A program made the position numbers and the translations under genes. 60,247 bases of DNA from a virus (taxonomy: Duplodnaviria; Caudoviricetes). The notes beneath the pieces were generated by a model. It made no database searches and was not told the DNA's origin. It saw nothing but the letters and a program-made list of their open reading frames with translations. Positions 20,867 through 39,821 of this stretch are shown one piece after another. Positions within the stretch are counted from its first letter, which is position 1. Every line of letters starts with the position of its first letter. The DNA lies in the IMG/VR virus record IMGVR_UViG_3300030380_004437, positions 1-60,247 of that record; one strand, written 5' to 3'.

Positions 20867-20914
20867 AATGACCCTCCTTAATTAATAGCTAAAACCATTT
20901 TTAACTATTTATAT

Positions 20915-20943: not shown

Positions 20944-20968
20944 GCTAGATGTAAAGTTATTTAACGAA

Positions 20969-21476: not shown

Positions 21477-21528
21477 AAATCAGAGATATTTTAAGAAAAA
21501 TGTTTTATAAAATTGGTGAGATAATAAT

Positions 21529-21601
21529 AAGAAAGTGGTGTGAGAGAGTATTAACCCTAACTCCCTCACACCGTCACAGACAATTTGGGAGGGTCTGTGA
21601 C
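21529..21601 (-). terminator. Tandem hairpins ending the early minus-strand cluster
   Basis: GTCACAGAC...GTCTGTGAC (21573-21601) and GGTGTGAG...CTCACACC, followed on the minus strand by CTTTCTT. Confidence 0.6.
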
Positions 21602-21614
21602 TAGCTACTAAAAC

Positions 21615-21815
21615 CTATTCATCTTCCCATATTGGCGTGTTGCCACATAATTTAAATACTTCAACAATGGACTTTTGTTCACCAGTCTCACCGTTAGTAA
21701 GTTTCTCAGTCTCGCCACATGGTCGACAGAACTCAATCCAGTCACCACCCAGCACTAACATATTAGTACCTGACGCAGGACGCCTAGTTTCACAAATGCT
21801 ACAATAATTCGCCAT
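21615..21815 (-). CDS. Small CxxC-CxxC protein
   Basis: CSIC...CRPC; GAGGAGG RBS; class II promoter. Confidence 0.7.
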   Translation of the reverse strand: MANYCSICETRRPASGTNMLVLGGDWIEFCRPCGETEKLTNGETGEQKSIVEVFKLCGNTPIWEDE

Positions 21816-21851
21816 AATTTTTTCCTCCTCTTATAACTAATTTATAAATAT

Positions 21852-21880
21852 AGTATAGGTAAGATCCTAAAAGATGCCTA
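21852..21880 (-). promoter_or_regulatory. Class II promoter TAGG-CATC-N6-GATC-N5-TATACT
   Basis: One of 11 copies of a 29-bp motif, each upstream of an RBS and ATG. Confidence 0.85.
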
Positions 21881-21887
21881 TACTTCT

Positions 21888-22157
21888 CTAAGATTCTTGG
21901 CTATCTTCCGCTATAACATCATCCATGATTTCTTCTAGTTCTCCTGGTCCCACTAAACTATAATAATTAGTTTTCGCAATTACCCAAAAACCACCGAAAA
22001 TATCTGACCACTCTTCAGGATAACCCACTTCTTCAGCTTTAGCTTTATTACCAACGAACACAGCACCATATTTATTTTCAAGATGATTAATTAACCATTT
22101 TATAGGTTTAACCTCTTCATCTGTTTTAAAACTATTTAGTACATCAACAATCACCAT
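21888..22157 (-). CDS. Early hypothetical protein
   Basis: AAGGAGG RBS and own promoter. Confidence 0.7.
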   Translation of the reverse strand: MVIVDVLNSFKTDEEVKPIKWLINHLENKYGAVFVGNKAKAEEVGYPEEWSDIFGGFWVIAKTNYYSLVGPGELEEIMDDVIAEDSQES

Positions 22158-22190
22158 AAGTTCCTCCTTCTATAATTAACTTATTAATAA

Positions 22191-22219
22191 AGTATAGGTA
22201 AGATCTTATAAGATCCCTA
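22191..22219 (-). promoter_or_regulatory. Class II promoter (GATC/GATC)
   Basis: TAGGGATCTTATAAGATCTTACCTATACT. Confidence 0.85.
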
Positions 22220-22226
22220 TAGTTCT

Positions 22227-22526
22227 CTAATGATTTTCGTTATTCTCAAGGTAATGAATTTCCGCATCAAATGAGTAAGTCATTAGCTTATAAAGATCTA
22301 AATCCGTAAACTTACCGTTGATCTTAAACATTATATCATTAGCAAAATCACCAGTAGTAGCACCTTCTGCTTGAACGTAAGTATTATGATCACAAACATA
22401 GAAGTAGATGAAATTACCATTACCATTTACCCTAAGTTCATGAGGGATTTGAAATTTAATTTGAAGAGCTTTAGCTAAATGATATTCATTCGGCTGAAGT
22501 TCTATAAATTTAACATCTTCAGTCAT
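22227..22526 (-). CDS. Early hypothetical protein
   Basis: GGAGG RBS and own promoter. Confidence 0.7.
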   Translation of the reverse strand: MTEDVKFIELQPNEYHLAKALQIKFQIPHELRVNGNGNFIYFYVCDHNTYVQAEGATTGDFANDIMFKINGKFTDLDLYKLMTYSFDAEIHYLENNENH

Positions 22527-22561
22527 AAGTTGATCCTCCGTATTAATTAACTTATTAATAA

Positions 22562-22590
22562 AGTATAGCTAGGATCCTAAAGGATGCCTA
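22562..22590 (-). promoter_or_regulatory. Class II promoter (CATC/GATC)
   Basis: TAGGCATCCTTTAGGATCCTAGCTATACT. Confidence 0.85.
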
Positions 22591-22607
22591 TCTTGATGGC
22601 TATATTC

Positions 22608-23006
22608 TTAAGCACCCCATGCCCACTTACTACCCTCAAGAGGAACCTTGAAGTATTCTGTGAGTGCAGACGCACCTAGCGAACCACCGAGGGATAACGC
22701 TAAGTAAAAATGCATGCCACATTTACTATAAGATACCTGTATGATGCTGTATGAGCCACCGTCAGAGACAGGGAAGTAACAACTATCATAGACAGTATGC
22801 CAAGGGGCTAATTGGTCTTTCATGACAAACTTATAATGTTCATCATCATGACCGTCACACTCACCAAAATGGTAGAGTATTTTTTGATCATCATTGAGAT
22901 GATCCAGTATTACATCAAGAATACTTTGAACTCTTGCCTGTTCGGGGTCTGAGTTATCAAAGACGTCTGGATCTAATACGTCTGATTTACTAATAAGATC
23001 TAACAT
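22608..23006 (-). CDS. Early acidic hypothetical protein
   Basis: GGAGG RBS and own promoter. Confidence 0.7.
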   Translation of the reverse strand: MLDLISKSDVLDPDVFDNSDPEQARVQSILDVILDHLNDDQKILYHFGECDGHDDEHYKFVMKDQLAPWHTVYDSCYFPVSDGGSYSIIQVSYSKCGMHFYLALSLGGSLGASALTEYFKVPLEGSKWAWGA

Positions 23007-23035
23007 ATAATCCTCCGTTTTACTTATTAACTACT

Positions 23036-23064
23036 AGTATATAAAGCATCATAAAGGATGCCTA
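23036..23064 (-). promoter_or_regulatory. Class II promoter (CATC/GATG)
   Basis: TAGGCATCCTTTATGATGCTTTATATACT. Confidence 0.85.
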
Positions 23065-23082
23065 TCTTCCCTCGCTATATTC

Positions 23083-23637
23083 TTACTCAGAAGCCCAGTG
23101 AATCAAGTGGTGTTGATCAATATGATCCACTAAGTAATCAAGACCAAACCCATGAGACAAAAAGCTAAACGGACGCACTGTATCAGTGGTGACTATTCCC
23201 CAGCTGTCAGACGCTATAAAACCTGAGTCTTGTTGATAATACTGATGTTCCAGTAATACATAAACAGTATCATCACGAGTTATCTTCCACTCATGTAGAC
23301 ATTCACTAGCCTCTCGATGATACATTCCACTGAATACATCAACGACTTCTTCTGACAACTTTTTACGGTTCTCAGGAGACAGTTCCAGAACTACACGAGC
23401 ACCTGTTTCCTCACCAAAGCTGGCATACGCTAAAGGTATATCACCAGTAAACTCTTCGGGAGTAAACTTGCCACCGAATGGATCCATAAAGTTCACAAGA
23501 TCTTTTGAATCTTGAGCAAACAAATCCTCGGGACTGATCTCATAATAAGTAAGATCATAAAATTGATTATGATTTTCTCTGATAGCTCGCACCACAGGCT
23601 TCACATAATCAACATAGTTTTTTAAATTATTAGTCAT
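23083..23637 (-). CDS. Early hypothetical protein
   Basis: GGAGG RBS and own promoter. Confidence 0.7.
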   Translation of the reverse strand: MTNNLKNYVDYVKPVVRAIRENHNQFYDLTYYEISPEDLFAQDSKDLVNFMDPFGGKFTPEEFTGDIPLAYASFGEETGARVVLELSPENRKKLSEEVVDVFSGMYHREASECLHEWKITRDDTVYVLLEHQYYQQDSGFIASDSWGIVTTDTVRPFSFLSHGFGLDYLVDHIDQHHLIHWASE

Positions 23638-23666
23638 GTTTCCTCCATTAACTAACTTATAACTAA

Positions 23667-23695
23667 AGTATAAGTAAGATGCTAAGCGATCCCTA
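23667..23695 (-). promoter_or_regulatory. Class II promoter (GATC/CATC)
   Basis: TAGGGATCGCTTAGCATCTTACTTATACT. Confidence 0.85.
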
Positions 23696-23713
23696 GCATC
23701 TTCCTTATAATCA

Positions 23714-23941
23714 TTAACCTATTTCGACTTGGTCAAGAGTAAATCTAGGACCGAGTGACTCTTTGATATGTTGTACTAGTGTAGACCAGTTTTTTACGTC
23801 TTCGCTGGTGATAGTAAAGAAGTCTTCTAAACCATTACCTGCTTCATCTTGATAACCGATGCTGACTACATCATCGAGAGCAAATCTCCCGTAACATTCA
23901 ACACCATCGATTTCTTTATAAAAATTATAATTTACATTCAT
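23714..23941 (-). CDS. Early acidic hypothetical protein
   Basis: GGAGG RBS and own promoter. Confidence 0.7.
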   Translation of the reverse strand: MNVNYNFYKEIDGVECYGRFALDDVVSIGYQDEAGNGLEDFFTITSEDVKNWSTLVQHIKESLGPRFTLDQVEIG

Positions 23942-23975
23942 AATTCCTCCGTTGGTAAGTAAATTAATATAATTA

Positions 23976-24004
23976 AGTATAGGTAAGATGCTAAGCGATG
24001 CCTA
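23976..24004 (-). promoter_or_regulatory. Class II promoter (CATC/CATC)
   Basis: TAGGCATCGCTTAGCATCTTACCTATACT. Confidence 0.85.
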
Positions 24005-24031
24005 ACATCTTCCCTATAATGGTTAGTTAAT

Positions 24032-24244
24032 TTATGTTGCTACAAAGTCTTTATCGATGAGATCATCCGTACCTACTCTTCCCCACAGCTCTAGACCTAA
24101 CCTGATGTAAACAGATTCGAGCTTTGCATCGCCGAGAACTTTAGTATAGACTTGCTCTTCAGGTGTTCCTTCTTTGTAGACCAGGAACCTAGTAGCAGGG
24201 TCGATTGACCAACCCTGCTGTTTAAATCGTTCAACCTCTAGCAT
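24032..24244 (-). CDS. Early hypothetical protein
   Basis: Overlaps the upstream gene end. Confidence 0.6.
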   Translation of the reverse strand: MLEVERFKQQGWSIDPATRFLVYKEGTPEEQVYTKVLGDAKLESVYIRLGLELWGRVGTDDLIDKDFVAT

Positions 24245-24455
24245 CTTTCACCTTATTTTCTATGATGTCAATATCATCTAATAGGTCAGACACTCTGTTA
24301 ATACTACTAAGGTCAGACACTGGTAAGTCCCAGCGTTGTACAATAGTCCTAAAATTATCACGAGCATGTAATATGTCGGATATTATTTCTTTTAAATCAG
24401 TACACACTTGTTGCTGTGCATCTTGATTTAAACCTTCTTTAAACTCTTCGTTCAT
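24231..24455 (-). CDS. Early hypothetical protein
   Basis: GGAGG RBS and own promoter. Confidence 0.7.
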   Translation of the reverse strand: MNEEFKEGLNQDAQQQVCTDLKEIISDILHARDNFRTIVQRWDLPVSDLSSINRVSDLLDDIDIIENKVKDARG

Positions 24456-24488
24456 ACTTCCTCCGTTGTACGTTAAGTTAATAATTAA

Positions 24489-24517
24489 AGTATAGTAAAC
24501 ATCATTTTAGATGCCTA
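24489..24517 (-). promoter_or_regulatory. Class II promoter (CATC/GATG)
   Basis: TAGGCATCTAAAATGATGTTTACTATACT; its TAG is the stop codon of the upstream gene. Confidence 0.85.
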
Positions 24518-24859
24518 TACTTCGTCGCTATCTTCTTTTAGGTAAAATTCTACAGTACCGAAGGCACACGTGCCACCGTCATAGACTACTTCCTCACGAG
24601 ACTCAACACATAAGAATTTATACTTATTAGTCTCAAAGATAAGTAGAGTCTTGTTGTCGACACCACCGTGCGGACCGTTATATTCAAACTTACCTAGTTC
24701 ATGAGACATAGTGAGAGTGGCGAGTTCTCGGAGTGCTTCAATGAAACACCCACCGTCCTCGCCATCATAAGCATAAGTTCCGTTATAGCTTAAAGCCGTA
24801 TCACGAGCGAAACATACATCGACATGTTCCTCTAACTGTTCTACATTATCAAACCACAT
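24515..24859 (-). CDS. Early acidic hypothetical protein
   Basis: ORF track; follows the RHH-like gene. Confidence 0.65.
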   Translation of the reverse strand: MWFDNVEQLEEHVDVCFARDTALSYNGTYAYDGEDGGCFIEALRELATLTMSHELGKFEYNGPHGGVDNKTLLIFETNKYKFLCVESREEVVYDGGTCAFGTVEFYLKEDSDEV

Positions 24860-24862
24860 GAC

Positions 24863-25030
24863 TTACCCGTTATTCTCAGTATCAAACCATGCTTTAGTTG
24901 CTGCTCTAATAGCATTCGTTCTACCTATCTTAGCACCTGTTCGTTGGCTAAGCATTTCTGCGATATAGTCTACGTCCTCAGCTAAATCTTCGGGTAGTGC
25001 TACATTTATTCGCTTATCTTGATTATTCAT
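24863..25030 (-). CDS. Ribbon-helix-helix-like DNA-binding protein (55 aa)
   Basis: Not in track. MNNQDKRINVALPEDLAEDVDYIAEMLSQRTGAKIGRTNAIRAATKAWF...; AAGGAG RBS and own promoter. Confidence 0.6.
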   Translation of the reverse strand: MNNQDKRINVALPEDLAEDVDYIAEMLSQRTGAKIGRTNAIRAATKAWFDTENNG

Positions 25031-25056
25031 GATAACTCCTTTATTTAATATAATTA

Positions 25057-25085
25057 AGTATAGTAAGGATCATATACAATCCCTA
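25057..25085 (-). promoter_or_regulatory. Class II promoter (GATT/GATC)
   Basis: TAGGGATTGTATATGATCCTTACTATACT. Confidence 0.8.
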
Positions 25086-25165
25086 TCTTCTTCCTAAATT
25101 TTTTTAAGCTAAATCCAGCCCTTTCGAGCGTAGCAATTTAAAAGGTATAGTTAGGTATTATAAAT

Positions 25166-25199
25166 AAAGAAAGGGCTTAATCGAGCGTTGATTAAGCCC
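25166..25199 (-). terminator. Intrinsic terminator
   Basis: GGGCTTAATC...GATTAAGCCC with minus-strand TTTCTTT tail. Confidence 0.75.
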
Positions 25200-25225
25200 C
25201 ATTCGTACTTGAAGAGTTTAGCTAC

Positions 25226-25627
25226 CTAGTAGCCGTTTAAGAGTCTTTCTAAAGCCATGTCGAATTTAGTAGACATTTTGACTTTATCACCTGTATCTTT
25301 TTCTAACTCACGCACTTCAAAGAGATGTTCGCTTCTTTGACCATCAGTAAGTTTAAGTAGAACAGATTGATATTGCCTATTATTTTCTTCTGACACTTCA
25401 GTGAGTGGGTATAAGTTTACAAGACCATAAGTAAGTTTAGCTAAATCATAACCACTATCTATATAACCCCTTTTGATAAGATGTTCCCGTAAGTTCCTCA
25501 ACTCACTGGCTCTTTCTAAATCTACCTCTGAGTCACGGTGCCAATAATAACTATTAACTTCTTCCGCTACTTTCTGCAAGATACCGTGTACAGCGTTTAT
25601 GTCTGATTGATTATCAAATACTATCAT
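25226..25627 (-). CDS. Early hypothetical protein
   Basis: ATGA coupling to upstream small ORF. Confidence 0.65.
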   Translation of the reverse strand: MIVFDNQSDINAVHGILQKVAEEVNSYYWHRDSEVDLERASELRNLREHLIKRGYIDSGYDLAKLTYGLVNLYPLTEVSEENNRQYQSVLLKLTDGQRSEHLFEVRELEKDTGDKVKMSTKFDMALERLLNGY

Positions 25628-25755
25628 AGCACTTGCCCCAGTTCATGTAGCTCGTTAAGGAGTTTCTTTTGAGCAGTCACTGCTTTTTGTATTTTCTTGA
25701 GGTTTTTACGATTACCTACATGCTCTATATGTTTGATTATAGTTTCTGTTTTCAT
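25624..25755 (-). CDS. Small hypothetical protein (43 aa, MKTETIIKHIEHVG...)
   Basis: GGAG RBS, class II promoter, coupled to next gene. Confidence 0.6.
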   Translation of the reverse strand: MKTETIIKHIEHVGNRKNLKKIQKAVTAQKKLLNELHELGQVL

Positions 25756-25784
25756 ATTATCTCCATAATAAAATTAATATATAA

Positions 25785-25813
25785 AGTATAGTAGGGATCA
25801 CTAACGATCCCTA
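25785..25813 (-). promoter_or_regulatory. Class II promoter (GATC/GATC)
   Basis: TAGGGATCGTTAGTGATCCCTACTATACT. Confidence 0.85.
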
Positions 25814-25822
25814 CCATGATCA

Positions 25823-26026
25823 CTACTTAGTATCTTTCCACGCTATGAATATTTTAAGAGCTTCGCCTTTTGACAAGTCAAAACATTCTCTTAACATCAT
25901 AGGAGCTTGAAACATATTAGAACCACCTGAGTCCATCATGTCGTCCAAAAAGTCGTAGTACTCTTGATTTTGATCAAAGTGATCTTTATCATCAGCTTTG
26001 ATACTTTCATATTTATCTTTACTCAT
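25823..26026 (-). CDS. Small acidic hypothetical protein
   Basis: FLDDMMDSGGSNMFQAP..LRECFDLSKGEA. Confidence 0.65.
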   Translation of the reverse strand: MSKDKYESIKADDKDHFDQNQEYYDFLDDMMDSGGSNMFQAPMMLRECFDLSKGEALKIFIAWKDTK

Positions 26027-26027
26027 A

Positions 26028-26438
26028 TTACCACCATGCCTCCATTACGCAATTATGTTCTGCTGCCACCTCGAACAAAGTTGCTAGGTCTTTGATTTCT
26101 TTAACCCTAAAATCATAAGTGCCTCTACTACTAGGTAAAGACCACTCAAACCTATGGTCATCAGGTAAATCATTTAACCCGTTATCTTCTATATACTCTC
26201 GCAAGAGTAACCCATACACTCGTAACTCATCAGTTTGTATAACTTCGTCTTGATCTAAATGCCAGAAAGCTGGACTTGACGCAGTTAAATGAGCTACGAA
26301 CTCCTCATAGCAACCACCTCTAAACGAGCCATTACCATGACCACTAAACAAACCTCCTACGAGGGTAAGATTATCGAGACGGTCGTCTTTAAATACTTCG
26401 TCACGATTACCTTTCATTACATAACAATCTAAACCCAT
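26028..26438 (-). CDS. MGLD-start hypothetical protein
   Basis: MGLDCY...FRG...WW C-terminus; GGAGG RBS. Confidence 0.7.
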   Translation of the reverse strand: MGLDCYVMKGNRDEVFKDDRLDNLTLVGGLFSGHGNGSFRGGCYEEFVAHLTASSPAFWHLDQDEVIQTDELRVYGLLLREYIEDNGLNDLPDDHRFEWSLPSSRGTYDFRVKEIKDLATLFEVAAEHNCVMEAWW

Positions 26439-26447
26439 GGGTACCTC

Positions 26448-26708
26448 CTACCATTGTTGGCGAACAATCATTGAATGTTCTTTGTTATCTACTATTTTAT
26501 AAGCAAAGATGTCAGTACACTTTTTATCATTGTACACAGCATCCTTTGCACCTTGGTGAGTAAGTGACGACATGTATAAACTCCAAGGTTCATCATCTCT
26601 TGCGTCAATACCCTTATATTGCCTGAAGACCCTAAACCTGAGTACAGTTTCTACATACTCAGTCTCTGGGTCATGTTCAGGGACTTCTATATCATCTATA
26701 TTGATCAT
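26448..26708 (-). CDS. Early hypothetical protein
   Basis: ORF track, tightly packed. Confidence 0.6.
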   Translation of the reverse strand: MINIDDIEVPEHDPETEYVETVLRFRVFRQYKGIDARDDEPWSLYMSSLTHQGAKDAVYNDKKCTDIFAYKIVDNKEHSMIVRQQW

Positions 26709-26709
26709 A

Positions 26710-26838
26710 TTACTTACCTATATATTTGATATCTTTTTTAGGGATCACCTGATAAGCTCCCTTATTATACGCAGGGGCAATAGTGTATTGACTACTGATG
26801 CGCCTACGCTCCTCAGGTGTTAAAGTTTTATTTTTCAT
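26710..26838 (-). CDS. Small protein with TIAPAYNKGAYQVI motif (42 aa)
   Basis: Not in track; GGAG RBS and class II promoter. Confidence 0.6.
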   Translation of the reverse strand: MKNKTLTPEERRRISSQYTIAPAYNKGAYQVIPKKDIKYIGK

Positions 26839-26870
26839 ATATTCTCCGTGTATAAAAAATTAATATATAA

Positions 26871-26899
26871 AGTATATTAATGATCAAGTTTGATGCCTA
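26871..26899 (-). promoter_or_regulatory. Class II promoter (CATC/GATC), inside the 3' end of the upstream gene
   Basis: TAGGCATCAAACTTGATCATTAATATACT. Confidence 0.85.
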
Positions 26900-27140
26900 G
26901 GATATTTCCCTTTGATCTTTTACAACCTTTACAAGTATGCACCACTGATTCTTTATTCCTATCTATAACTGTATAACCACCAACATATTTTATTTTAATT
27001 ACATGAGTCGAGTGATCCATGCTTTCAAGAAAACCGTGTTGGTATTTTGTGCCCATGCGTTTATGACCCTGATACTCACCAAAGTTCACTTCCTGTTTAC
27101 ACAGGTCACACCATTTAAAATTATGTTTTTCTGCTGACAT
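26877..27140 (-). CDS. CxxC-CxxC hypothetical protein
   Basis: CDLC...CKGC; AGGAG RBS. Confidence 0.65.
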   Translation of the reverse strand: MSAEKHNFKWCDLCKQEVNFGEYQGHKRMGTKYQHGFLESMDHSTHVIKIKYVGGYTVIDRNKESVVHTCKGCKRSKGNILGIKLDH

Positions 27141-27251
27141 TTAATTCTCCTATAAGTAGAGTGCTGGACGAGGGAGGAGAATCATCTTTTTAGGGAGAGA
27201 TCGCCCAGCACCTACAAGTAATATAACTCAACGAGTCATATACGACTAGAT

Positions 27252-27569
27252 TTATTTTGAAAGTTTTTCTACTATCTCGATAAATCCACGGTCGACATCG
27301 TATTTGATGTCTTGGTAAGCGTACCTTCGTGACTCAAGTGCTTCACGTACAGTCTTCTTATTGAAGTCTAGTACACGCTCTTGATTATGTGTCACTCTAG
27401 GTATTTTACCAGTTGTGACTATAAAGTGGTCAGGATTATACTTTCCTGGCTTTATAACCTTTTCACCAGACTTAGCAATCTCTGCTAGGTTGGTTGCGAC
27501 AGCTAACTTTATGTTAGCTACCTTTTTAGTTGTGGCAGGTTTAACTACCTTCTTAACACTTTTTTTCAT
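27252..27569 (-). CDS. Small-domain family paralogue 4 with basic N-terminal tail
   Basis: KYNPD...HNQER...KKTVREAL...DIKYDVDRGFIEI; AGGAG RBS. Confidence 0.75.
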   Translation of the reverse strand: MKKSVKKVVKPATTKKVANIKLAVATNLAEIAKSGEKVIKPGKYNPDHFIVTTGKIPRVTHNQERVLDFNKKTVREALESRRYAYQDIKYDVDRGFIEIVEKLSK

Positions 27570-27611
27570 ATCTGCTCCTAAGTTTTGAGTTATTAATTAA
27601 AAAGTTAAGTA

Positions 27612-27640
27612 AGCATAACTTACTAGATATAGAAAGTAAA
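27612..27640 (-). promoter_or_regulatory. Class I promoter (TTTACT-N17-TATGCT)
   Basis: Upstream of paralogue 4; preceded by a class II-like AAGG-CATC-N7-GATC element at 27645-27663. Confidence 0.75.
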
Positions 27641-27751
27641 GCTCGATCATATTATGATGCCTTTCTTGTTAAATTAAATATATCTCTAGATTATATACCA
27701 AGACAATAAGACACATTCCCATGATAAGTATAATAAGATCTCTTATATCTA

Positions 27752-27901
27752 TCATCTTCCTTGTCCTCTATATGCTTTATAAGACCTTCTCTTATTTTTA
27801 TTCATAGTCGAGAAACCTACATTGCCTCGACCTTGAGAAGTTTTCTTACCACGTGATCCGCACTTCGGCACATGGGCAGTAGTTCCTAATCTTATTTTCA
27901 T
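27752..27901 (-). CDS. Small basic protein (49 aa, ...KKTSQGRG...MNKNKRRSYKAYRGQGR)
   Basis: ATGA coupling; not in track. Confidence 0.6.
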   Translation of the reverse strand: MKIRLGTTAHVPKCGSRGKKTSQGRGNVGFSTMNKNKRRSYKAYRGQGR

Positions 27902-28407
27902 AAGTATTTACTCCTTATGGTATCAGTAGCTGTACATTTTTCACATAGAAACAAGCCGTGCTCTTTGACTACGGCTGGTGCGTCACAATTATCACAGTAC
28001 ATTTGGGTATTGTTTATATAGTCCTCAATACGTTTTACAAGTATTTTAGCACGTTTATTACGACCCCACGCTCCAGTTTTAACAGGTAAATCTAAAGCTT
28101 TACATATCTCAGCGAGAAATTCCATATTATTTACGGCTATAACTTCGTCCATAGGTTTATCATCTTTACCATATATTTGACCGTTAAACAACGCAAACAT
28201 ATCGAGAGGATTACTTTTATGAATTTTAGTGACATATTCGACAAACCTATCAGGGACACCTACCTTCCTAAAAAAGCTAGGGTGGAAAAAGCCGTAGCCA
28301 TCAGCTACGACACACTCCTGTGCCCAGTCATAGATAGATCGTTTTACATCACGAGCCATAAAATAATATTCAACATCATCACTAGTATTTAAGTTTTTAT
28401 ATTTCAT
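27898..28407 (-). CDS. Hypothetical protein with C-terminal CxxC-CxxC
   Basis: AAGGAG RBS; CDNC...CEKC. Confidence 0.65.
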   Translation of the reverse strand: MKYKNLNTSDDVEYYFMARDVKRSIYDWAQECVVADGYGFFHPSFFRKVGVPDRFVEYVTKIHKSNPLDMFALFNGQIYGKDDKPMDEVIAVNNMEFLAEICKALDLPVKTGAWGRNKRAKILVKRIEDYINNTQMYCDNCDAPAVVKEHGLFLCEKCTATDTIRSKYL

Positions 28408-28463
28408 ATTACTCCTTATTTATAAACCTTTATTTTAGTAAACATCAAAGTGAGATAAAAGCA

Positions 28464-28652
28464 TCAATCCTTTTTCTTCATTTTTCTTTTATATTCATCA
28501 CGCATTATCATTGTTATTTCTTTCATGTTTTCAGTAGTATAGGGTGCATCGCCTAAGAATTCATAAGACATATCAGGTAGTTCATTAGAGCCTTTGTATT
28601 TGTTGTTCCAGTTTTCCTTTTTATTTTTGTTCCAGTTCTTCCTTTTACTCAT
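28464..28652 (-). CDS. Small basic hypothetical protein
   Basis: ORF track. Confidence 0.5.
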   Translation of the reverse strand: MSKRKNWNKNKKENWNNKYKGSNELPDMSYEFLGDAPYTTENMKEITMIMRDEYKRKMKKKD

Positions 28653-28790
28653 TGGTTGACCTGCTGTGTAAGATTAACTGCCTTATAAAAACCCTTAAAA
28701 ATATAAAGGGTGCGTCTACGCAGTGTCACACACATCTTACTTTGGTTCTCACTCCAGCAGGCAAAAGCAGAGGAGGATTGCAGACGCTTC

Positions 28791-29342
28791 TTAAAAAACA
28801 TTCTTATACCTCTCGTATAGTTCTTCTCTTTCGTTTACCAATTGTTTGTAATCTTTTACTTTGAAATTATCATAGTATTTTGTTTTTTGTAGCTTTCTGC
28901 TTTCATGTACTAAATCACTAAGCTTCTGGACAAAGATCATAGGATACGGTCCAACTTCCTCGTCATTGTATGCATTAGTACCGAACAGCTCAATACCTTC
29001 TTCGGTATCATCAGGGTGGCTACCCATTATAAATATGTCTTTTTTCCATAAGATACATTGATTTTGTTTAGTTATGAAATTATTAAACTCAGTAAATGAC
29101 CTTTCGTTAAAGGTACTGACGAGTATAAGAATATCCTCTTTATGATGATCAAAAGTAGGAATAAATTTTTCGTAGAAAGACTCAGAAAATAAACTTGTAT
29201 TTATTTCTATTCTAGCCCTGTCCTCATGTAATGCTTTAGCAGCATATGGGCACACAGGCAACCAATCTAATAACTCGTTCGGTTTAGCTAAAAATTCGTA
29301 AACCCAACAATGTATATCTTTTTCAATCTTCGATGATAACAT
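28791..29342 (-). CDS. DUF1415-like hypothetical protein
   Basis: WV.EFL.KPN...LPVCPYA.KA...SHPD...PYPMIFVQ. Confidence 0.5.
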   Translation of the reverse strand: MLSSKIEKDIHCWVYEFLAKPNELLDWLPVCPYAAKALHEDRARIEINTSLFSESFYEKFIPTFDHHKEDILILVSTFNERSFTEFNNFITKQNQCILWKKDIFIMGSHPDDTEEGIELFGTNAYNDEEVGPYPMIFVQKLSDLVHESRKLQKTKYYDNFKVKDYKQLVNEREELYERYKNVF

Positions 29343-29604
29343 CCTCGAGTACTCCTTCCTTATTTACTCGTACACTGTGTGAGAAACCTTTTTCTTCAGG
29401 TTTATGCTCTGTCATAGCTTTAGAAAACTCGGGACTTATATAGCCCCTATTTTCTAATTTTTGGTTATTTTGTATTACTTGTGCTATGCGTTTAGCATAA
29501 CTATTGGGGTCAGCTATAAATTGGTAAGACTCTTGATTACCTTGAGAGTCCCAACCTGTTTCAGTATAACCTTCCTCTGTGACTTTAAATTTAAAATATG
29601 TCAT
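29323..29604 (-). CDS. Early hypothetical protein
   Basis: GGAGG RBS and own promoter. Confidence 0.65.
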   Translation of the reverse strand: MTYFKFKVTEEGYTETGWDSQGNQESYQFIADPNSYAKRIAQVIQNNQKLENRGYISPEFSKAMTEHKPEEKGFSHSVRVNKEGVLEDVIIED

Positions 29605-29633
29605 AAGTTCCTCCGTTTAATTATATTTAATTA

Positions 29634-29662
29634 AGTATAGCTAGGATGTATTATCATCACTA
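29634..29662 (-). promoter_or_regulatory. Class II promoter variant (TAGT-GATG/CATC) inside the terS 3' end
   Basis: TAGTGATGATAATACATCCTAGCTATACT. Confidence 0.75.
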
Positions 29663-30159
29663 GCATTTTTCGTTATTATCCTTTGCTCCTCTTCTTCTAG
29701 TTCTTCAGGCTCCACTTCTATTATCTTGCCAGCAGGTAATACACCACCTGTATCATAATATAGTTGCTTCATACGTTCAAGCACTTCTTCTTTTGACATG
29801 GTATCTACTCTGTTTACAGTAAGTTCACTTCTGTTTACATATAGACCTGCAGCTTTACCACGAGCCACCTCTGCTGTTACTGCTGCAGAGAAAGCGTTAT
29901 TACGCATAGCACCGTCACGAATATCTTTTAAATCCTTTAAATGAGTTCCTAAACTAAGTTCTGCCTTATCTGCAGCTTTTTCTTGTAACTCACCTATTCT
30001 CTTTTGAACTAATGGATTATCTTTACTCGTTAGCACTGTACCAGCTTTCCCTGCATTCTTCTCGCTATACCCAGCGTGTTTTGCAGCATCTTTTTTACTC
30101 ATGCCTTTAGCGACATTTTGAGCAAACTTTTCTTGTTTTGGTGTTAGCTTATCCGCCAT
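29641..30159 (-). CDS. terS: Terminase small subunit
   Basis: LTPKQEKFAQNVAKGMSKKDAAKHAGYSEK...ARGKAAGLY pattern. Confidence 0.75.
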   Translation of the reverse strand: MADKLTPKQEKFAQNVAKGMSKKDAAKHAGYSEKNAGKAGTVLTSKDNPLVQKRIGELQEKAADKAELSLGTHLKDLKDIRDGAMRNNAFSAAVTAEVARGKAAGLYVNRSELTVNRVDTMSKEEVLERMKQLYYDTGGVLPAGKIIEVEPEELEEEEQRIITKNASDDNTS

Positions 30160-33355: not shown

Positions 33356-33578
33356 CTTGTATCATATCTCTCTTTTGTCTGGGCGTGTAACCTAAAGCCC
33401 AGCAATTTATTACTATAAGTTTTTTCTTTGTGTCTGAATAACTGTTCCAATCTCTTATTTCTTCTTCCGTACGACCACAACCTTTACATATACGAGTACC
33501 AAATTGAGTCACTGAACAAGTACCCACACATGGAGAACTAGACAAGCTTGTTGTTCGATGTAGAGATCTCTGAACCAT
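33312..33578 (-). CDS. DUF1289 family cysteine-rich protein
   Basis: SPCVGTCS...CKGCGRTEEEIRDW. Confidence 0.7.
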   Translation of the reverse strand: MVQRSLHRTTSLSSSPCVGTCSVTQFGTRICKGCGRTEEEIRDWNSYSDTKKKLIVINCWALGYTPRQKRDMIQDEEIHSRESTQNKS

Positions 33579-33858
33579 TTTTACTTTTTATGAGTCGTAT
33601 ACCATTTTCCCTGAGCCATCCTCTCAATACATCATTATGTATATCTGGATATCTTTCTTTGACTTTTTTGCAGACCTCATTATATACTCTTAAACCCTTG
33701 TAGTAATCACTATGTCCTAACCTGCACATACGAATTATTTGCCATACCCTCTGTTTTGTAATTTTATATTTCATACCTATCTCCTCTAAAGTAGCATCAG
33801 AATTTTTGTATATCATATAGATATTGAAGTACATTCTTTTTTTATCTTGCCGTTTCAT
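33538..33858 (-). CDS. Stand-alone sigma70 region 4-like HTH protein
   Basis: TLEEIGMKYKITKQRVWQI vs sigma70 r4.2 TLEEVGKQFDVTRERIRQI. Confidence 0.65.
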   Translation of the reverse strand: MKRQDKKRMYFNIYMIYKNSDATLEEIGMKYKITKQRVWQIIRMCRLGHSDYYKGLRVYNEVCKKVKERYPDIHNDVLRGWLRENGIRLIKSKNGSEISTSNNKLV

Positions 33859-37138: not shown

Positions 37139-38188
37139 TTATTTTATTCTTCTAGATAGCCATCTAAAGCAAGCTTCCATCCAATCATCAGCTTTACAAT
37201 GTTGTATTTCTATAAGTGCTTCTTCCTTACTCTCCTCTTTAGAGAGATACCAAGCATCTTGTATAGGTACTGCGACGTCAGTGAAAAATGGATCTTTGAA
37301 TTCCATTTGCTGAAAAGGTTTTCTAGTAAAAAACATAATTAAGTCTGCTTCCCAATCACGAAAGTCTACACTTACCATTGGATAGGGATTTACTTCATCT
37401 AGTTTATACGGATTGTGATTAATTAATAGCTTTATTGTGTAATAATCAAAAGAGTCTATTTGTAGTAATTTTTCTCTCATAGGCTCATATACATTTAAGT
37501 ACGCATGATAATTATTACTCACTTGATAATACTTACCCATTCTTATACCTGTTGCTGCAGCTACGAACTCATGTAACATTGACATGTGTACCACGTTTGC
37601 TCCATATGCACCCCAGATAATATCATTTGACCTATTTGATACTGTCATATCGAGACGAGGACTGTAGCCGTCTATGTGTACAGTTTTAAAGTATATAGTC
37701 GTATTACAGGGTACGTCAGCTCCATCTCGCCCTAAATCGCCCACAGCGTCCCACATTTGTAGGACACAGCGTCTATCGTAAGGGTCGTGTTTAAGTCTAT
37801 CAATAATAATTCTTACTTGGTCTTTACCAGCAAAATCTTTAAATATAGGGTCTTTGAAATAACTTCTCCATCTCCAGCCATACGCTCCCCACAATGTTTC
37901 ACCATCATCACTATATCTACTCATACCTTTATTGTAGTACTCCATGGTAGCTAAGTCATTAAAACCAGCCAGCATCCATAAACCTTCCATAAAATGGAAA
38001 AAGGGGTTAGCGTCTCTATCTGGGTCAAATAAAACTCTCTCGCTAGGGTTAGCATAAACTGTAGTAACTGGTTCTTCTACAGTGATGACTTTACCGTTTC
38101 TAGTATTTTCTATATGACCATTCGAGTCAAGTAAATCCATACCTCTTAAAAAGGCATCGTTTACATTTCTACAGTTTAATGTGTGCAT
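37139..38188 (-). CDS. Thymidylate synthase-fold dUMP hydroxymethylase (5-hmdU synthesis)
   Basis: Catalytic DVPCN; RSNDIIWGAYGAN (Asn implies dUMP specificity); NPFFHFMEGLWMLAG and GAYGWRWR as in YuA/M6-type enzymes; clustered with a 5-hmdU DNA kinase. Confidence 0.8.
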   Translation of the reverse strand: MHTLNCRNVNDAFLRGMDLLDSNGHIENTRNGKVITVEEPVTTVYANPSERVLFDPDRDANPFFHFMEGLWMLAGFNDLATMEYYNKGMSRYSDDGETLWGAYGWRWRSYFKDPIFKDFAGKDQVRIIIDRLKHDPYDRRCVLQMWDAVGDLGRDGADVPCNTTIYFKTVHIDGYSPRLDMTVSNRSNDIIWGAYGANVVHMSMLHEFVAAATGIRMGKYYQVSNNYHAYLNVYEPMREKLLQIDSFDYYTIKLLINHNPYKLDEVNPYPMVSVDFRDWEADLIMFFTRKPFQQMEFKDPFFTDVAVPIQDAWYLSKEESKEEALIEIQHCKADDWMEACFRWLSRRIK

Positions 38189-38964
38189 TATTCTCCTATT
38201 CCTTCTTTATATGCTTTTTTCCAACCTATGATTACATCCTTACGAGGTAATCCGTTCCAAGCAGTTTTAGTTTGTTTCTCTACTACCTTAACGCATGTAG
38301 GGTGTAAAGAGTGTAATCTTTCAGCACCTTCATTATGAACATCAATAGTTCTCCACTCACTACAACCACCGTCAGCGTTAGATGATTTTTGACCTTGTGC
38401 ATAATAAAAACTTACCTTACATGCTTTACCTTTTCTCAATAGTTGTAAAGCTATATCAAAATCTTCCATTACCCTAGTCCTGCCCCACTCTATGTCATCA
38501 GGAAACTCGTTTAAGTTATAAGCGAGTACTCTCATGTATCGAGTATTTTCTACAGATAAATCTTCTACCCTATTATTACCTTCCCTAGCACTTACACCCA
38601 CGTGGGCATAACCTTGACTAAGCCACTCGTCTAATAAACCAAACATAGCAGGATACTCATCTGACTCTAAGTATCGTAAGTGCCAGTCGGTAGGGCTTTT
38701 ACGAATGTAAAAACGTAAATCATCATCTAGCATAACTATATGGGGGTCATCACTATGCTCTATAATATATTTTCGTTTAGCCCCTATGCCTATACAGTCC
38801 TCTGGGACTACCATTTTAGGTGTGTTTTGATATTTAGTGTACAGGTGTTGCTCATCATGATCAATAACTAATGTTACATCACCATTAGCTTGCATCCATT
38901 GGGGAAACCATTTTAAAGTTTCTTGATTAGTGGGTCTACCACGAGTAGGAATATATATTTTCAT
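38188..38964 (-). CDS. GT-A glycosyltransferase, TET-associated (TAGT)/JGT-like
   Basis: IYIPTRGR, MLDDD (DxD), EDFDIALQLL, GGCS motifs. Confidence 0.75.
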   Translation of the reverse strand: MKIYIPTRGRPTNQETLKWFPQWMQANGDVTLVIDHDEQHLYTKYQNTPKMVVPEDCIGIGAKRKYIIEHSDDPHIVMLDDDLRFYIRKSPTDWHLRYLESDEYPAMFGLLDEWLSQGYAHVGVSAREGNNRVEDLSVENTRYMRVLAYNLNEFPDDIEWGRTRVMEDFDIALQLLRKGKACKVSFYYAQGQKSSNADGGCSEWRTIDVHNEGAERLHSLHPTCVKVVEKQTKTAWNGLPRKDVIIGWKKAYKEGIGE

Positions 38965-39821
38965 AGGTATTGTGCCTCATTAAATTTTGGGTATTTATCG
39001 TATTTATATTTTGCTCTAGGTCTACCCTCACCTAACCTAGTTCTCTCATATTTATCAAACTCACATAAACTGTGCTCTATCTCTCTCATCTCTAGCTTTG
39101 GTACATGTGGCTCTAAGTATTTATCTGCTACTTGTAAAAGTTTATACATCTCTGCGTTCCAGTCATGTTTGTGCGAGTCCCAAGTAAGCGTTCTTAAATT
39201 CATTCTATTTAATCCACGCTTTGCTCCTGGACCTGGATTTGCCCAAGTATAAAGATCACGAGCGTTCCTTAATAAATGAGTGTGTCTTAAATCTGTAACA
39301 ACTTCGTATGACATAAATCCACTAAATCCTGCGTAAGGAAGATAATTTTTCCAAGTATCTTCTAAACTACTAGAGACTATCTCTGGGTGGTTATTATATA
39401 AAGGTGTAAGTATTTTGTCTACTGTTTGTTCTATTTTAGTACCACCTAAAGTACCTGTCAACATATAAGCACCTGTGTAAACTTTTTTCCCACTATCCAT
39501 TCTATCCTGCATTATAGCTTTTACCTTTTCTGGTTGCCAATCCTCAGGGAAACCTATCTCTTCTAGGGTGGATGGCCAATTTATTTGACGAGCCACGGAC
39601 ATTGAGAAAGCTAAGTTAGGGTGGTCAAAGTAAGGCTCTCTCCAGTTTGTTCTTACCCATTCTGTGACTGTGTCTAGTTCTCTAAACACATTACAAAAAC
39701 TATAAGTTTTTAATATCTTATCTTCTGTCCACGGTGGATGAAGACCGTTTTTTCTCCTTAAATATATTTGGTGTCTTTCATTTATGTAGTTAAAAAACCC
39801 TTCTACTTTATCTTGTACCAT
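38961..39821 (-). CDS. 5-hmdU DNA kinase (aGPT-Pplase1 family)
   Basis: ERHQIY.RR..G..PPWTEDKIL..YSFCNVFRELD; FMSYEVVTD; GPGAKRGL; IEHSLCEFDKY. Confidence 0.85.
   Translation of the reverse strand: MVQDKVEGFFNYINERHQIYLRRKNGLHPPWTEDKILKTYSFCNVFRELDTVTEWVRTNWREPYFDHPNLAFSMSVARQINWPSTLEEIGFPEDWQPEKVKAIMQDRMDSGKKVYTGAYMLTGTLGGTKIEQTVDKILTPLYNNHPEIVSSSLEDTWKNYLPYAGFSGFMSYEVVTDLRHTHLLRNARDLYTWANPGPGAKRGLNRMNLRTLTWDSHKHDWNAEMYKLLQVADKYLEPHVPKLEMREIEHSLCEFDKYERTRLGEGRPRAKYKYDKYPKFNEAQYL

What the first reader, a model, noticed from the sequence alone, without database searches (positions are those of the whole stretch)
21852..29662. Eleven class II promoters: TAGG-SATS-N6-SATS-N5-TATACT
Copies are at 21852, 22191, 22562, 23036, 23667, 23976, 24489, 25057, 25785, 26871 and 29634. 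The 29-bp geometry and TATACT are invariant, and two boxes sit exactly one helical turn apart. The boxes vary among GATC, CATC and GATG (one GATT), with AT fixed and flanks free only between G and C. This degeneracy is odd for base-specific reading but natural if the recognised feature is a pair of modified T's. Downstream leaders are AT-rich and nearly TpS-free up to the RBS.
Basis: partly seen in the sequence, partly recalled or inferred. Interest (0 to 1): 0.9.

Follow-up and report, generated by a model that had tools for sequence, protein, structure and literature searches.

The report
Repeated promoter cassettes in marine phage
A marine bacteriophage carries eleven near-identical promoter-like cassettes in front of small genes of unknown function; they look like host-polymerase promoters with an extra two-box element, and nothing found here shows that modified DNA bases are what is being read.

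Summary
The exact motif occurs 9 times and a slightly relaxed form 11 times, all on the minus strand, with 0 expected by chance. Each copy ends 26-36 nt before the ATG of a small ORF that has a GGAGG ribosome site. The window is a complete 60-kb HTVC023P-type podophage that does carry thymidine-hypermodification genes.

Best reading: these are sigma70-type promoters, with TATACT as the -10 and TAGGSA as a -35-like hexamer 17 bp upstream. They form a cassette array in a hypervariable region of ORFans. Strain variants have insertions and deletions that end at the cassettes, as with T4 PeSL elements. The two SATS boxes are probably an operator-like site for a small phage protein. One candidate, a 55-aa ribbon-helix-helix ORF, lies inside the array.

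The modified-T idea is not supported:
- Five relatives with the same hmU kinase have 0 copies of the motif.
- TpS-poor leaders also occur in a relative that lacks the kinase.
- Restriction to G or C has conventional explanations.

No transcription start data could be obtained. This is a new variant of a known kind, of moderate interest.

The parts
21852..21880 (-). Cassette 1: TAGG CATC-N6-GATC-N5-TATACT. Upstream of ORF 21615-21815 (66 aa, CxxC...CxxC).
22191..22219 (-). Cassette 2 (GATC/GATC). Upstream of ORF 21888-22157 (89 aa). Deleted on its own in one strain variant (joint 22168->22226).
22562..22590 (-). Cassette 3 (CATC/GATC). Upstream of ORF 22227-22526 (99 aa).
23036..23064 (-). Cassette 4 (CATC/GATG). 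Upstream of ORF 22608-23006 (132 aa).
23667..23695 (-). Cassette 5 (GATC/CATC). Upstream of ORF 23083-23637 (184 aa). The orthologous gene in relative G005 has a related promoter without box 1.
23976..24004 (-). Cassette 6 (CATC/CATC). Upstream of ORF 23714-23941 (75 aa). In two DNA runs this is the site of a 366-nt insertion flanked by a 45-bp duplicate.
24489..24517 (-). Cassette 7 (CATC/GATG). Upstream of ORF 24231-24455 (74 aa). Its TAG is the stop codon of ORF 24515-24859.
25057..25085 (-). Cassette 8 (GATT/GATC). Upstream of the 55-aa ribbon-helix-helix-like ORF 24863-25030.
25785..25813 (-). Cassette 9 (GATC/GATC, perfect 8-bp inverted repeat). Upstream of ORF 25624-25755 (43 aa).
26871..26899 (-). 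Cassette 10 (CATC/GATC). Upstream of ORF 26710-26838 (42 aa). Overlaps the 3' end of ORF 26877-27140.
29634..29662 (-). Cassette 11 (TAGT, GATG/CATC). Embedded in the 3' end of the small-terminase ORF 29641-30159. Upstream of ORF 29323-29604 (93 aa).
25172..25200 (-). Terminator-like hairpin plus T-run that splits the array. It lies between ORF 25226-25627 and cassette 8.
24863..25030 (-). 55-aa ribbon-helix-helix-like ORF, a candidate reader of the boxes. Absent from some strains that keep the cassettes.
33538..33858 (-). 106-aa helix-turn-helix protein with a sigma70 region-4.2-like segment. Second, weaker candidate reader.
37139..39821 (-). Thymidine-hypermodification genes: thymidylate-synthase homologue (37139-38188), TAGT glycosyltransferase (38188-38964) and 5-hmdU DNA kinase (38961-39821).

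Best explanation
Each 29-bp cassette is a promoter for the host RNA polymerase with its primary (sigma70-family) sigma factor. TATACT is the -10 hexamer and TAGGSA sits where a -35 hexamer would be, 17 bp upstream. Transcription should start about 7 nt after TATACT, giving a 20-30-nt AT-rich leader with a GGAGG ribosome site.

The eleven cassettes drive a hypervariable array of small, lineage-specific ORFans. These are probably early or host-takeover genes. This phage group has no RNA polymerase of its own.

The cassettes also act as patches of homology at which ORFans are gained, lost and swapped, like the PeSL cassettes of T4-type phages.

The two SATS boxes (about -31 to -28 and -21 to -18, on one face of the helix) are an extra constrained element. 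I think they are most likely an operator for a small phage-encoded DNA-binding protein that times the array, read through ordinary base or shape features. In that picture each box is a pseudo-palindromic GATC-like subsite for one symmetric dimer, with two dimers one turn apart, as with Arc at P22 Pant. The 55-aa ribbon-helix-helix ORF inside the array is the best candidate.

Shown: the motif, its geometry, its position relative to genes, its restriction to this lineage, and indels that end at the cassettes. Inferred: promoter activity, the start site, early timing, and the existence and identity of a box-binding protein.

My odds: promoters about 0.85; boxes read by a dedicated protein about 0.45; that protein being the RHH ORF about 0.15.
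For: Motif and position:
- 11 of 11 copies lie on the coding strand, 0 expected by chance.
- TATACT ends 26-36 nt before an RBS-ATG in 11 of 11.
- The generic sigma70 scan lists the 6 copies whose hexamer is TAGGCA as 9-of-12 matches with a 17-bp spacer.

No phage polymerase:
- No match to Sigma70_r2, and no D-x-D-G-D motif in the ORFs tested.
- The T7-type RNAP family search also found nothing, but its controls did not ring either, so it is uninformative.
- HTVC027P, a cultured member of the group, is stated to lack an RNAP and to have early genes of unknown function only (passages of PMC12753301).

ORFan array:
- 8 of the 11 ORFs directly downstream have no tblastn match (E<=1e-4) in any of 5 related complete genomes.
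- 9 of those 11 were scanned in Pfam; 0 passed a curated cut-off.

Lineage restriction:
- 0 copies in G001-G005.
- 38 distinct single sites and no cluster across the bacterial and archaeal genome collection.
- Multiple copies occur only on two close IMG/VR relatives.

Shuffling at the cassettes:
- Joints in DNA-run contigs include 21880->22599 (cassette 1 to just past cassette 3).
- 22168->22226 and 23633->23711 each remove a single cassette.
- 24018->23974 carries 366 inserted letters.
- 21907->22175 is replaced by 506 letters.
- 24861->25033 excises the RHH ORF precisely. The same RHH-ORF gap is seen in L010.

Boxes are constrained:
- In 23 distinct cassette variants, N6 and N5 vary freely.
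- Outer box positions are G or C, except T at box-1 position 4 in 3 variants. The AT cores were required by that search, but they are also invariant in the unbiased hits.

RHH candidate:
- The sequence begins KRINVALPEDL.
- RHH_5 gives E 5.9e-4, 20 bits, below the 26-bit cut-off.
- The Atlas first hit scores 0.93 to a CopG-like cluster.
- The homodimer model gives ipSAE 0.58 against a best control of 0.02. That mark was reached by 21 of 30 proteins solved as pairs of one chain and 0 of 23 solved as single chains. The runs agree in at least 94% of contacts and partner pLDDT is at least 79. The interface includes strand residues 5-14 pairing with themselves. RHH dimers are solved structures, so this pass may reflect likeness only.
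Against: - No transcription start or expression evidence. The one RNA run was available only as contigs and covers the array sparsely.
- The RHH ORF is absent from G006, a 72%-complete fragment that has 10 cassettes with intact boxes. It is also absent from G005 and from strain variants in three DNA runs. If it reads the boxes, it is dispensable.
- G005 has two related promoters (TAGG-N18-TATACT with GATC-N5-TATACT) that lack box 1, so box 1 is not universally needed.
- GATC-N5-TATACT also occurs behind a TTTACT-type -35 in L065, L067 and L068. Box 2 may therefore belong to the core promoter rather than to an operator.
- The copies are related by descent and recombination, so the conservation statistics overstate independent evidence.
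- The candidate 'ordinary' promoters (TTTAC-N17-19-TAYAHT) are not more frequent than chance: 3 against 1.0 +/- 0.9. The contrast between class I and class II is therefore weak.
Confidence: 0.5

Rival explanations
1. Sigma alone. The cassettes are plain sigma70-type promoters. TAGGSA is simply this host's tolerated -35, and the SATS boxes and other spacer letters are kept by shared descent, gene conversion among cassettes, or direct RNAP-spacer contacts. No dedicated factor is involved.
For: - TAGGCA-N17-TATACT scores 9 of 12 against the E. coli consensus.
- No factor could be tied to the motif.
- The G005 versions work without box 1 and with a spacer 1 bp shorter, which is typical -35 flexibility.
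- GATC-N5-TATACT recurs with another -35 type in L065, L067 and L068.
- Leaders are also near-identical between copies, which suggests recent duplication.
Against: - N6 and N5 have diverged freely while TAGG and both boxes have not.
- Substitutions at outer box positions are almost all G<->C in a genome that is 64% A+T.
- Spacer letters are not normally conserved in sigma70 promoters (established knowledge, recalled).
Confidence: 0.25
2. The boxes are read, by RNAP or by a phage factor, as a pair of hypermodified thymidines. S flanks define the modification context, and unmodified DNA would be inactive.
For: - The phage encodes a dUMP-hydroxymethylase-like thymidylate synthase, a 5-hmdU DNA kinase and a TAGT glycosyltransferase.
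- Hypermodification is partial and sequence-specific, with unknown motifs (passages in PMC8989533 and PMC5889632).
- The AT core is invariant, with S-only flanks.
- Leaders lack TpS.
- There is a precedent, recalled and not seen in any call: SPO1 middle promoters and TF1 prefer hmU-containing DNA.
Against: - 5 of 5 relatives with the kinase have 0 copies and no equivalent repeated motif.
- The leader bias (G or C preceded by A rather than T) is equally present in 023Pt_psg01 (31 vs 5), which has no kinase match (one search used a looser RBS pattern).
- Box position 4 is mostly C, not free S.
- G005's orthologous promoter lacks box 1.
- Nothing in the sequence can show which T's are modified.
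Confidence: 0.07
3. The selected feature is a hairpin. The inverted repeat TAGGSATS...SATSYYTA folds in read-through RNA as a leaky terminator, processing site or stabiliser, or extrudes in DNA. Promoter likeness is secondary or additional.
For: - 10 of 11 cassettes fold into a hairpin that pairs the box regions, and 5 of 11 have z <= -3.6 against shuffles.
- Two are flagged as terminator-like.
- PeSL cassettes combine a promoter with a terminator stem-loop (abstracts and passages of PMC2839356 and PMC4122927).
Against: - Box-to-box pairing is no better than column composition gives: 75.0% of cells paired against 73.5 +/- 1.1 in shuffles, with 85 of 500 shuffles as high. The covariation score is reached by 39 of 500.
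- Changes between orthologous copies break pairs rather than compensate.
- 6 of 11 have z between -0.01 and -1.63.
- Hairpin registers differ between copies.
Confidence: 0.1
4. Not promoters at all. The repeat is only a recombination or mobility scar, or a translational leader module, carried with the ORFan cassettes.
For: Indel end points lie at the cassettes. Single cassettes can be deleted with the downstream gene retained (joints 22168->22226 and 23633->23711).
Against: - The -10 and -35 likeness and 17-bp spacing are invariant in 11 of 11.
- Orientation always matches the genes.
- The conserved letters are exactly those at promoter positions, while the flanks vary.
Confidence: 0.05

Closest known systems
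PeSL (promoter-early stem-loop) cassettes of T4-type phages (Arbiol et al. 2010, PMC2839356; Comeau et al. 2014, PMC4122927; abstracts and passages read)
   Same: Short repeated regulatory cassettes that sit in hyperplastic regions and each precede small ORFans. Insertions, deletions and replacements between related phages end at the cassettes. There is stem-loop potential next to or within the cassette.
   Different: PeSL promoters match the host sigma70 consensus, and the stem-loop is a separate GC-rich terminator upstream. Here the -35 position is TAGGSA, two SATS boxes occupy the -35/spacer region, and the weak hairpin overlaps the promoter. The phage is a roughly 60-kb podovirus-type marine phage, not a T4-like myovirus. 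Terminator and promoter activities were not tested here.
T4 middle promoters (MotA box at -30 with a sigma70 -10; AsiA/MotA sigma appropriation). Recalled, not from a call.
   Same: A sigma70-type -10 is retained. A phage-specific element replaces the canonical -35, and many copies serve one temporal class.
   Different: No MotA or AsiA homologue was searched for or found. The element here has two boxes and reaches into the spacer. TAGGCA still resembles a -35, so an activator may not be needed.
P22 Arc (ribbon-helix-helix) operator between -35 and -10 of Pant, and other RHH repressors such as Mnt and CopG. Recalled, not from a call.
   Same: Two subsites one helical turn apart on one DNA face, lying between the -35 and the -10. 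A small RHH gene sits inside the regulated region under one of the promoters.
   Different: Binding is untested. The RHH ORF is missing from strains that keep the boxes. There are eleven operators rather than one.
SPO1 hmU-dependent middle promoters (gp28 RNAP) and TF1, which prefers hmU DNA. Recalled; the literature search listed 2 papers that I did not open.
   Same: A phage with modified thymine whose transcription machinery distinguishes modified from unmodified templates.
   Different: SPO1 replaces all T by hmU and uses its own sigma factors. Here modification would be partial and hypermodified, no sigma region 2 is encoded, and there is no evidence that modification matters.
T7 class II promoters (phage RNAP). 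Recalled, not from a call.
   Same: The name 'class II', and about ten highly similar promoters in one phage.
   Different: No T7-type RNAP match (though the controls did not ring), and the group is reported to lack one. The motif has a bipartite sigma70-like layout, not a continuous 23-bp T7-type promoter.

Membership tests
sigma70-type bacterial promoter | -10 hexamer close to TATAAT | tested here: met
   TATACT (5 of 6) in 11 of 11
sigma70-type bacterial promoter | -35 hexamer close to TTGACA, 16-18 bp upstream | tested here: inconclusive
   TAGGCA (4 of 6) in 6 copies, TAGGGA (3 of 6) in 4 and TAGTGA in 1, all at 17 bp. The host and its consensus are unknown.
sigma70-type bacterial promoter | Transcripts start 5-9 nt downstream of the -10 | not testable with these tools
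   Only Logan contigs were available; no starts are listed (table 6).
PeSL-like mobile regulatory cassette | Repeated promoter cassettes concentrated in a hypervariable ORFan region | tested here: met
   All 11 lie in 21.8-29.7 kb. 8 of the 11 downstream ORFs have no match in 5 relatives.
PeSL-like mobile regulatory cassette | Indels or replacements between close relatives have end points in the cassettes | tested here: met
   Joints 21880->22599, 22168->22226, 23633->23711, 24018->23974 (+366 nt) and 21907->22175 (506 nt replaced), from metagenome contigs laid at 90% likeness. L010 lacks 24875-25027.
PeSL-like mobile regulatory cassette | Adjacent stem-loop that terminates transcription | tested here: inconclusive
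   Hairpins with z <= -3.6 in 5 of 11. No covariation. Termination not testable.
T4-type middle promoter (MotA/AsiA) | MotA box at -30 and phage MotA and AsiA proteins | not tested
   No search with MotA or AsiA families was run. The motif is not a MotA box (consensus recalled).
T7-type phage-RNAP promoter | Phage-encoded single-subunit RNAP | tested here: not met
   No PF00940 match in six frames, but the control genomes did not ring either. HTVC027P is stated to lack an RNAP.
Modification-dependent promoter (SPO1-like) | Activity requires the modified base in the template | not testable with these tools
   Only the modification genes can be seen. Relatives with the kinase lack the motif.
RHH operator (Arc/CopG-like) | A ribbon-helix-helix protein that dimerises through an antiparallel beta-ribbon | tested here: inconclusive
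   RHH_5 scores 20 bits against a cut-off of 26. Atlas first hit 0.93. Homodimer score 0.58 against best control 0.02; the mark was reached by 21 of 30 proteins solved as pairs of one chain and 0 of 23 solved as single chains; runs agree in at least 94% of contacts; partner pLDDT at least 79. The pass may be from memory of solved RHH dimers.
RHH operator (Arc/CopG-like) | The protein binds the paired subsites | not testable with these tools
   No protein-DNA tool was available. The gene is absent from G006 and G005.

The most novel reading that the evidence does not exclude
Promoter use in this phage depends on thymidine hypermodification. The two SATS boxes mark T's that the phage's kinase pathway modifies (or spares), and RNAP or a phage factor reads that chemical mark. 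Only virion-type DNA would then be transcribed from these eleven promoters. That would be a hypermodified-base analogue of SPO1's hmU-dependent middle promoters, in one of the most abundant marine phage groups.
Probability: 0.07. Interest if true: 0.85.

Novelty: new variant of a known kind. Interest (0 to 1): 0.4.

Why it matters
[quoted passage not shown] In that paper and in the pan-genome paper PMC9599517 the word 'promoter' occurs 0 times in the main text.

A sharply defined promoter family gives a handle on three things: how these phages time their ORFan genes, how accessory genes are shuffled between strains, and how sequence-specific proteins cope with DNA in which a large share of T is hypermodified.

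The cassette is short enough for direct reporter, in-vitro transcription and binding tests on modified against unmodified templates.

Tried and rejected
- **Megablast of the region against GenBank phages:** no match.
- **Rfam, whole window at gathering thresholds:** 0 hits.
- **tRNAs:** none.
- **Same motif upstream of terL in 80 IMG/VR relatives:** one strict copy, in L021. No comparable repeat family in four relatives. No enriched upstream 7-mers apart from TTTAC-type words.
- **Host regulon:** the scan of the bacterial and archaeal genome collection gave 39 loci with one match each. Two of these are the same site, so there are 38 sites and no cluster.
- **RNA evidence:** one metatranscriptome run (X1) held 9% of the sampled words, and it was available only as contigs.
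  - It gave no starts or ends.
  - Its contigs cover 26683-26928 and 28371-29057 within the array. One of them spans cassette 10, which could be read-through or DNA.
  - Parts of the array without cover are not evidence.
- **X1 depth spike:** 6130 in bin 20203-20603 coincides with 308 contigs that are only 90-95% alike and with a TTGTAG tandem repeat. I treat it as probably low-complexity recruitment.
- **Hairpin covariation:** not above shuffles.
- **'Class I' promoters:** the count is not above chance, so I dropped the claim that TTTACT is the group's standard -35.
- **Sigma54-type reading:** rejected by inspection. GG-N10-GC is not met and box 1 varies G/C.
- **Dam/SeqA-type reading:** rejected because only 9 of 22 boxes are GATC. 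GATC is not depleted in the genome (observed/expected 0.94).
- **The 106-aa sigma-r4-like HTH as the class II reader:** its recognition helix is invariant in 6 of 6 phages, while 4 of the 5 relatives have no TAGG-type promoter. This argues against it. The fold search gave only generic HTH hits, none with E <= 0.001.
- **The 69-aa plus-strand ORF 20155-20364:** no Pfam, PHROG or PDB match.
- **Supplements of papers:** closed. Table S3 of PMC12753301 (temporal classes of HTVC027P genes) and the supplements of PMC9599517 might show whether the equivalent ORFan region is early.

Full report
**What the window is.** The window is a whole IMG/VR virus record of 60,247 bp. CheckV estimates 100% completeness and no end repeats were found. 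It is about 36% G+C, and nearly all long ORFs lie on the minus strand.
- The DNA polymerase and portal are about 50% identical to Pelagibacter phages HTVC023P and HTVC027P, phage 023Pt_psg01 and phage DSL-LC04.
- Gene order along the minus strand is: replication and modification genes (45.4-31.6 kb), small terminase (30159-29641), a stretch of small ORFs (29.6-21.6 kb), a largely non-coding repeat region (21.6-19.2 kb), then large terminase, portal, capsid and tail genes.
- The phage does encode a thymidine-hypermodification set: a thymidylate-synthase homologue, a TAGT glycosyltransferase and a 5-hmdU DNA kinase, plus a 2OG-Fe(II) oxygenase.
- Such a set has been described for some HTVC023P-type clades (passages of PMC9599517).

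**The observation.** The exact pattern gives 9 hits and a one-letter-relaxed pattern gives all 11. Every hit is on the minus strand, and no shuffle produced any hit.
- A pattern that leaves the boxes unspecified (TAGG-N19-TATACT) still recovers 10 minus-strand copies, and all of them have the AT cores.
- In 11 of 11, TATACT ends 26-36 nt before an ATG with a GGAG/GAGG site.
- Three cassettes overlap the 3' end of the upstream ORF. Cassette 11 lies inside the end of the small-terminase gene, which may explain its TAGT.
However, outer position 4 is C in 18 of 22, so the consensus is closer to SATC than to SATS, and CATG never occurs.

**Are they promoters?**
- TATACT is a 5-of-6 match to the -10 consensus.
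- TAGGCA (6 copies), TAGGGA (4) or TAGTGA (1) sits 17 bp upstream. The generic scan lists the TAGGCA copies as 9-of-12 sigma70-like sites.
- Orientation, intergenic position and the fixed distance to the ribosome site all fit.
- A terminator-like hairpin at 25200-25172 splits the array.
- The phage has no match to sigma region 2. The T7-type RNAP search found nothing, but its controls did not ring.
- A cultured member of the group is stated to lack an RNAP and to have early genes of unknown function only.
- I could not test start sites. The only RNA run was held as contigs and showed no starts or ends.

**Where the motif occurs.**
- Across IMG/VR, multiple copies occur only on two contigs that are 82-98% identical to the window over the long aligned pieces. 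With a relaxed pattern they carry 11 and 10 copies.
- Five complete relatives (G001-G005, terL 84-86% identical in protein) all have the 5-hmdU kinase, yet have 0 copies. They also have no comparable repeated upstream motif.
- The closest of them, G005, has two related promoters, TAGG-N18-TATACT with GATC-N5-TATACT but no box 1. One lies upstream of the orthologue of ORF 23083-23637, which in the window follows cassette 5.
- GATC-N5-TATACT also occurs behind a TTTACT -35-like hexamer in three other relatives.
- In the bacterial and archaeal genome collection the motif occurs only as 38 scattered single sites. It is therefore not a visible host regulon.

**The array is a hyperplastic region.**
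- 8 of the 11 ORFs directly behind a cassette have no match in any of the five relatives, whereas replication and structural genes are 50-90% identical.
- None of the 9 scanned in Pfam passes a curated cut-off. Of those 9, the 6 scanned in PHROGs gave no family hit.
- Contigs from three DNA runs that hold strain variants show joints at the cassettes:
  - cassette 1 joined to just upstream of cassette 3, which removes two genes;
  - two deletions of a single cassette;
  - a 366-nt insertion flanked by a duplicated cassette 6;
  - a gene replaced by 506 unrelated letters;
  - precise loss of ORF 24863-25030, also seen in L010.
- These come from metagenome contigs laid at 90% likeness, and some have short sides (33-52 letters), so they are good hints rather than proof.
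- The pattern is that of PeSL cassettes in T4-type phages.

**What constrains the boxes?**
- Among 23 distinct cassette variants from the window and its close relatives, N6 and N5 vary freely. Outer box positions are G or C, except for T at box-1 position 4 in 3 variants.
- Orthologous copies differ by G<->C changes at five outer positions, against one C-to-T change.
- The boxes can pair with each other, and 5 of 11 cassettes fold significantly better than shuffles as RNA.
- Pairing is not maintained beyond what column composition gives: 75.0% against 73.5 +/- 1.1, with 85 of 500 shuffles as high. Changes between orthologues break pairs. A selected hairpin is therefore not supported.

**The modified-T model.** Its premise, that the phage modifies T, is sound. 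The literature I read says that modification is partial and context-specific with unknown motifs. The supporting arguments do not hold up.
- Relatives with the same kinase lack the motif.
- The TpS-poor leaders are a general property of AT-rich leaders in this group: G or C is preceded by A 27 times and by T 2 times in the window, and by A 18 and T 1 in G005.
- The same bias appears in 023Pt_psg01 (31 vs 5), which has no match to the kinase family.
- G<->C tolerance with a fixed AT core is what a two-fold symmetric reader of a GATC-like subsite, or a minor-groove or shape reader, would give.
- The model remains possible at low odds.

**Candidate readers.** Two small DNA-binding proteins stand out.
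1. ORF 24863-25030 (55 aa) begins KRINVALPEDL.
   - It gives a sub-threshold RHH_5 hit and a CopG-like Atlas hit of 0.93.
   - Its homodimer model gives ipSAE 0.58 against a best control of 0.02. That mark was reached by 21 of 30 proteins solved as pairs of one chain and 0 of 23 solved as single chains. The runs agree in at least 94% of contacts and pLDDT is at least 79. The N-terminal strands pair with each other. This may be recall of solved RHH dimers.
   - It sits inside the array under cassette 8.
   - Two RHH dimers one turn apart between the -35 and the -10 is the Arc/Pant arrangement (recalled).
   - If the strand residues that face the DNA are Arg7 and Asn9 (inference from the alternation pattern), a G-A/T-C subsite would be a natural target.
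   - Against this candidate: the gene is missing from G006, which keeps 10 intact cassettes, from G005 and from the strain variants.
2. ORF 33538-33858 (106 aa) has a segment that aligns with sigma70 region 4.2.
   - All 22 profile hits in the PDB with E <= 0.1 are RpoD, best E 0.0036. Sigma70_r4 scores 20.4 bits, below the 24.1 cut-off.
   - Its model is confident (mean pLDDT 80) but matches only generic HTH domains.
   - Its recognition helix is invariant across six phages, four of which lack TAGG-type promoters. It is therefore unlikely to be the class II-specific reader.

**Verdict.** The motif family is real and is very probably a set of promoters for host RNA polymerase, arranged as recombination-prone cassettes in an ORFan array. 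That makes it a new variant of a known kind. Who reads the TAGG/SATS half is unresolved. I favour a conventional protein operator (about 0.45) over sigma alone (about 0.25), a hairpin (about 0.1) or modified-T readout (about 0.07).

Noticed in passing
window 19300-20600: A module of about 615 bp is duplicated in tandem (two 110-129-nt repeat pairs about 70% alike). Each unit holds a plus-strand small ORF (20155-20364, 69 aa; the second copy near 19545-19760 has no ATG/GTG/TTG start) followed by a GC-rich hairpin. Each unit also carries a minus-strand sigma70-like site, a CCCACCCACCC run, CAGATCAGATCG repeats and GATCAAAACNTCTNCCCCC repeats. No Rfam, Pfam, PHROG or PDB match. It could be an origin, a packaging region or small-RNA genes.
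   Followed up: partly
window 20203-20603: In the one metatranscriptome run, summed contig depth is 6130 in this bin, against 11 or less in the other bins. It comes from 308 contigs only 90-95% alike and overlaps a TTGTAG tandem repeat (20478-20499). This is probably low-complexity recruitment, but an abundant small RNA is not excluded.
   Followed up: partly
window 33538-33858 (-): A 106-aa protein has a sigma70 region 4.1/4.2-like segment (…TLEEIGMKYKITKQRVWQI…) with no region 2 anywhere in the genome. It is conserved in 5 of 5 relatives with an invariant recognition helix. A free-standing sigma-region-4 mimic next to the DNA polymerase gene would be worth testing for RNAP binding.
   Followed up: partly
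window 16436-30159: The small terminase (29641-30159) and large terminase (16436-17953) are separated by about 11.7 kb of ORFans and non-coding repeats.
   Followed up: no
window 33842-45425: A hypermodification neighbourhood: a thymidylate-synthase homologue, TAGT glycosyltransferase, 5-hmdU kinase, a 155-aa protein matching the first half of PHROG 624 ('DNA binding protein'), a cytidylyltransferase-like protein (33842-34264) and a 2OG-Fe(II) oxygenase (44844-45425). The glycosyltransferase together with a nucleotidyltransferase suggests a sugar-bearing thymidine derivative.
   Followed up: no
window 47178-52918 (-): Two very large ORFs (1078 and 834 aa) have no Pfam or PHROG match and are only 24-40% identical to their counterparts in relatives. 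They may be ejection or internal virion proteins.
   Followed up: no
window 18330-19193 (-): A 287-aa lineage-specific ORF just upstream of the large terminase has a weak, sub-threshold ART-PolyVal (ADP-ribosyltransferase) hit (E 0.009).
   Followed up: no
window 27727-27755 and 40301-40330 (-): Degenerate relatives of the cassette: AGATC-N4-TATACT in the 182-nt gap upstream of ORF 27252-27569, and GAAGATC-N2-TATACT upstream of the modification operon (39803-40270). The latter's counterpart in G001 reads GATC-N5-TATACT.
   Followed up: partly
window 21521-21600 (-): Two hairpins follow the last array gene (21615-21815): GTCACAGAC…GTCTGTGAC and GGTGTGAG…CTCTCACACC. The second is followed by a T-rich run and is a likely terminator of the array. 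The terminator scan did not flag it.
   Followed up: no
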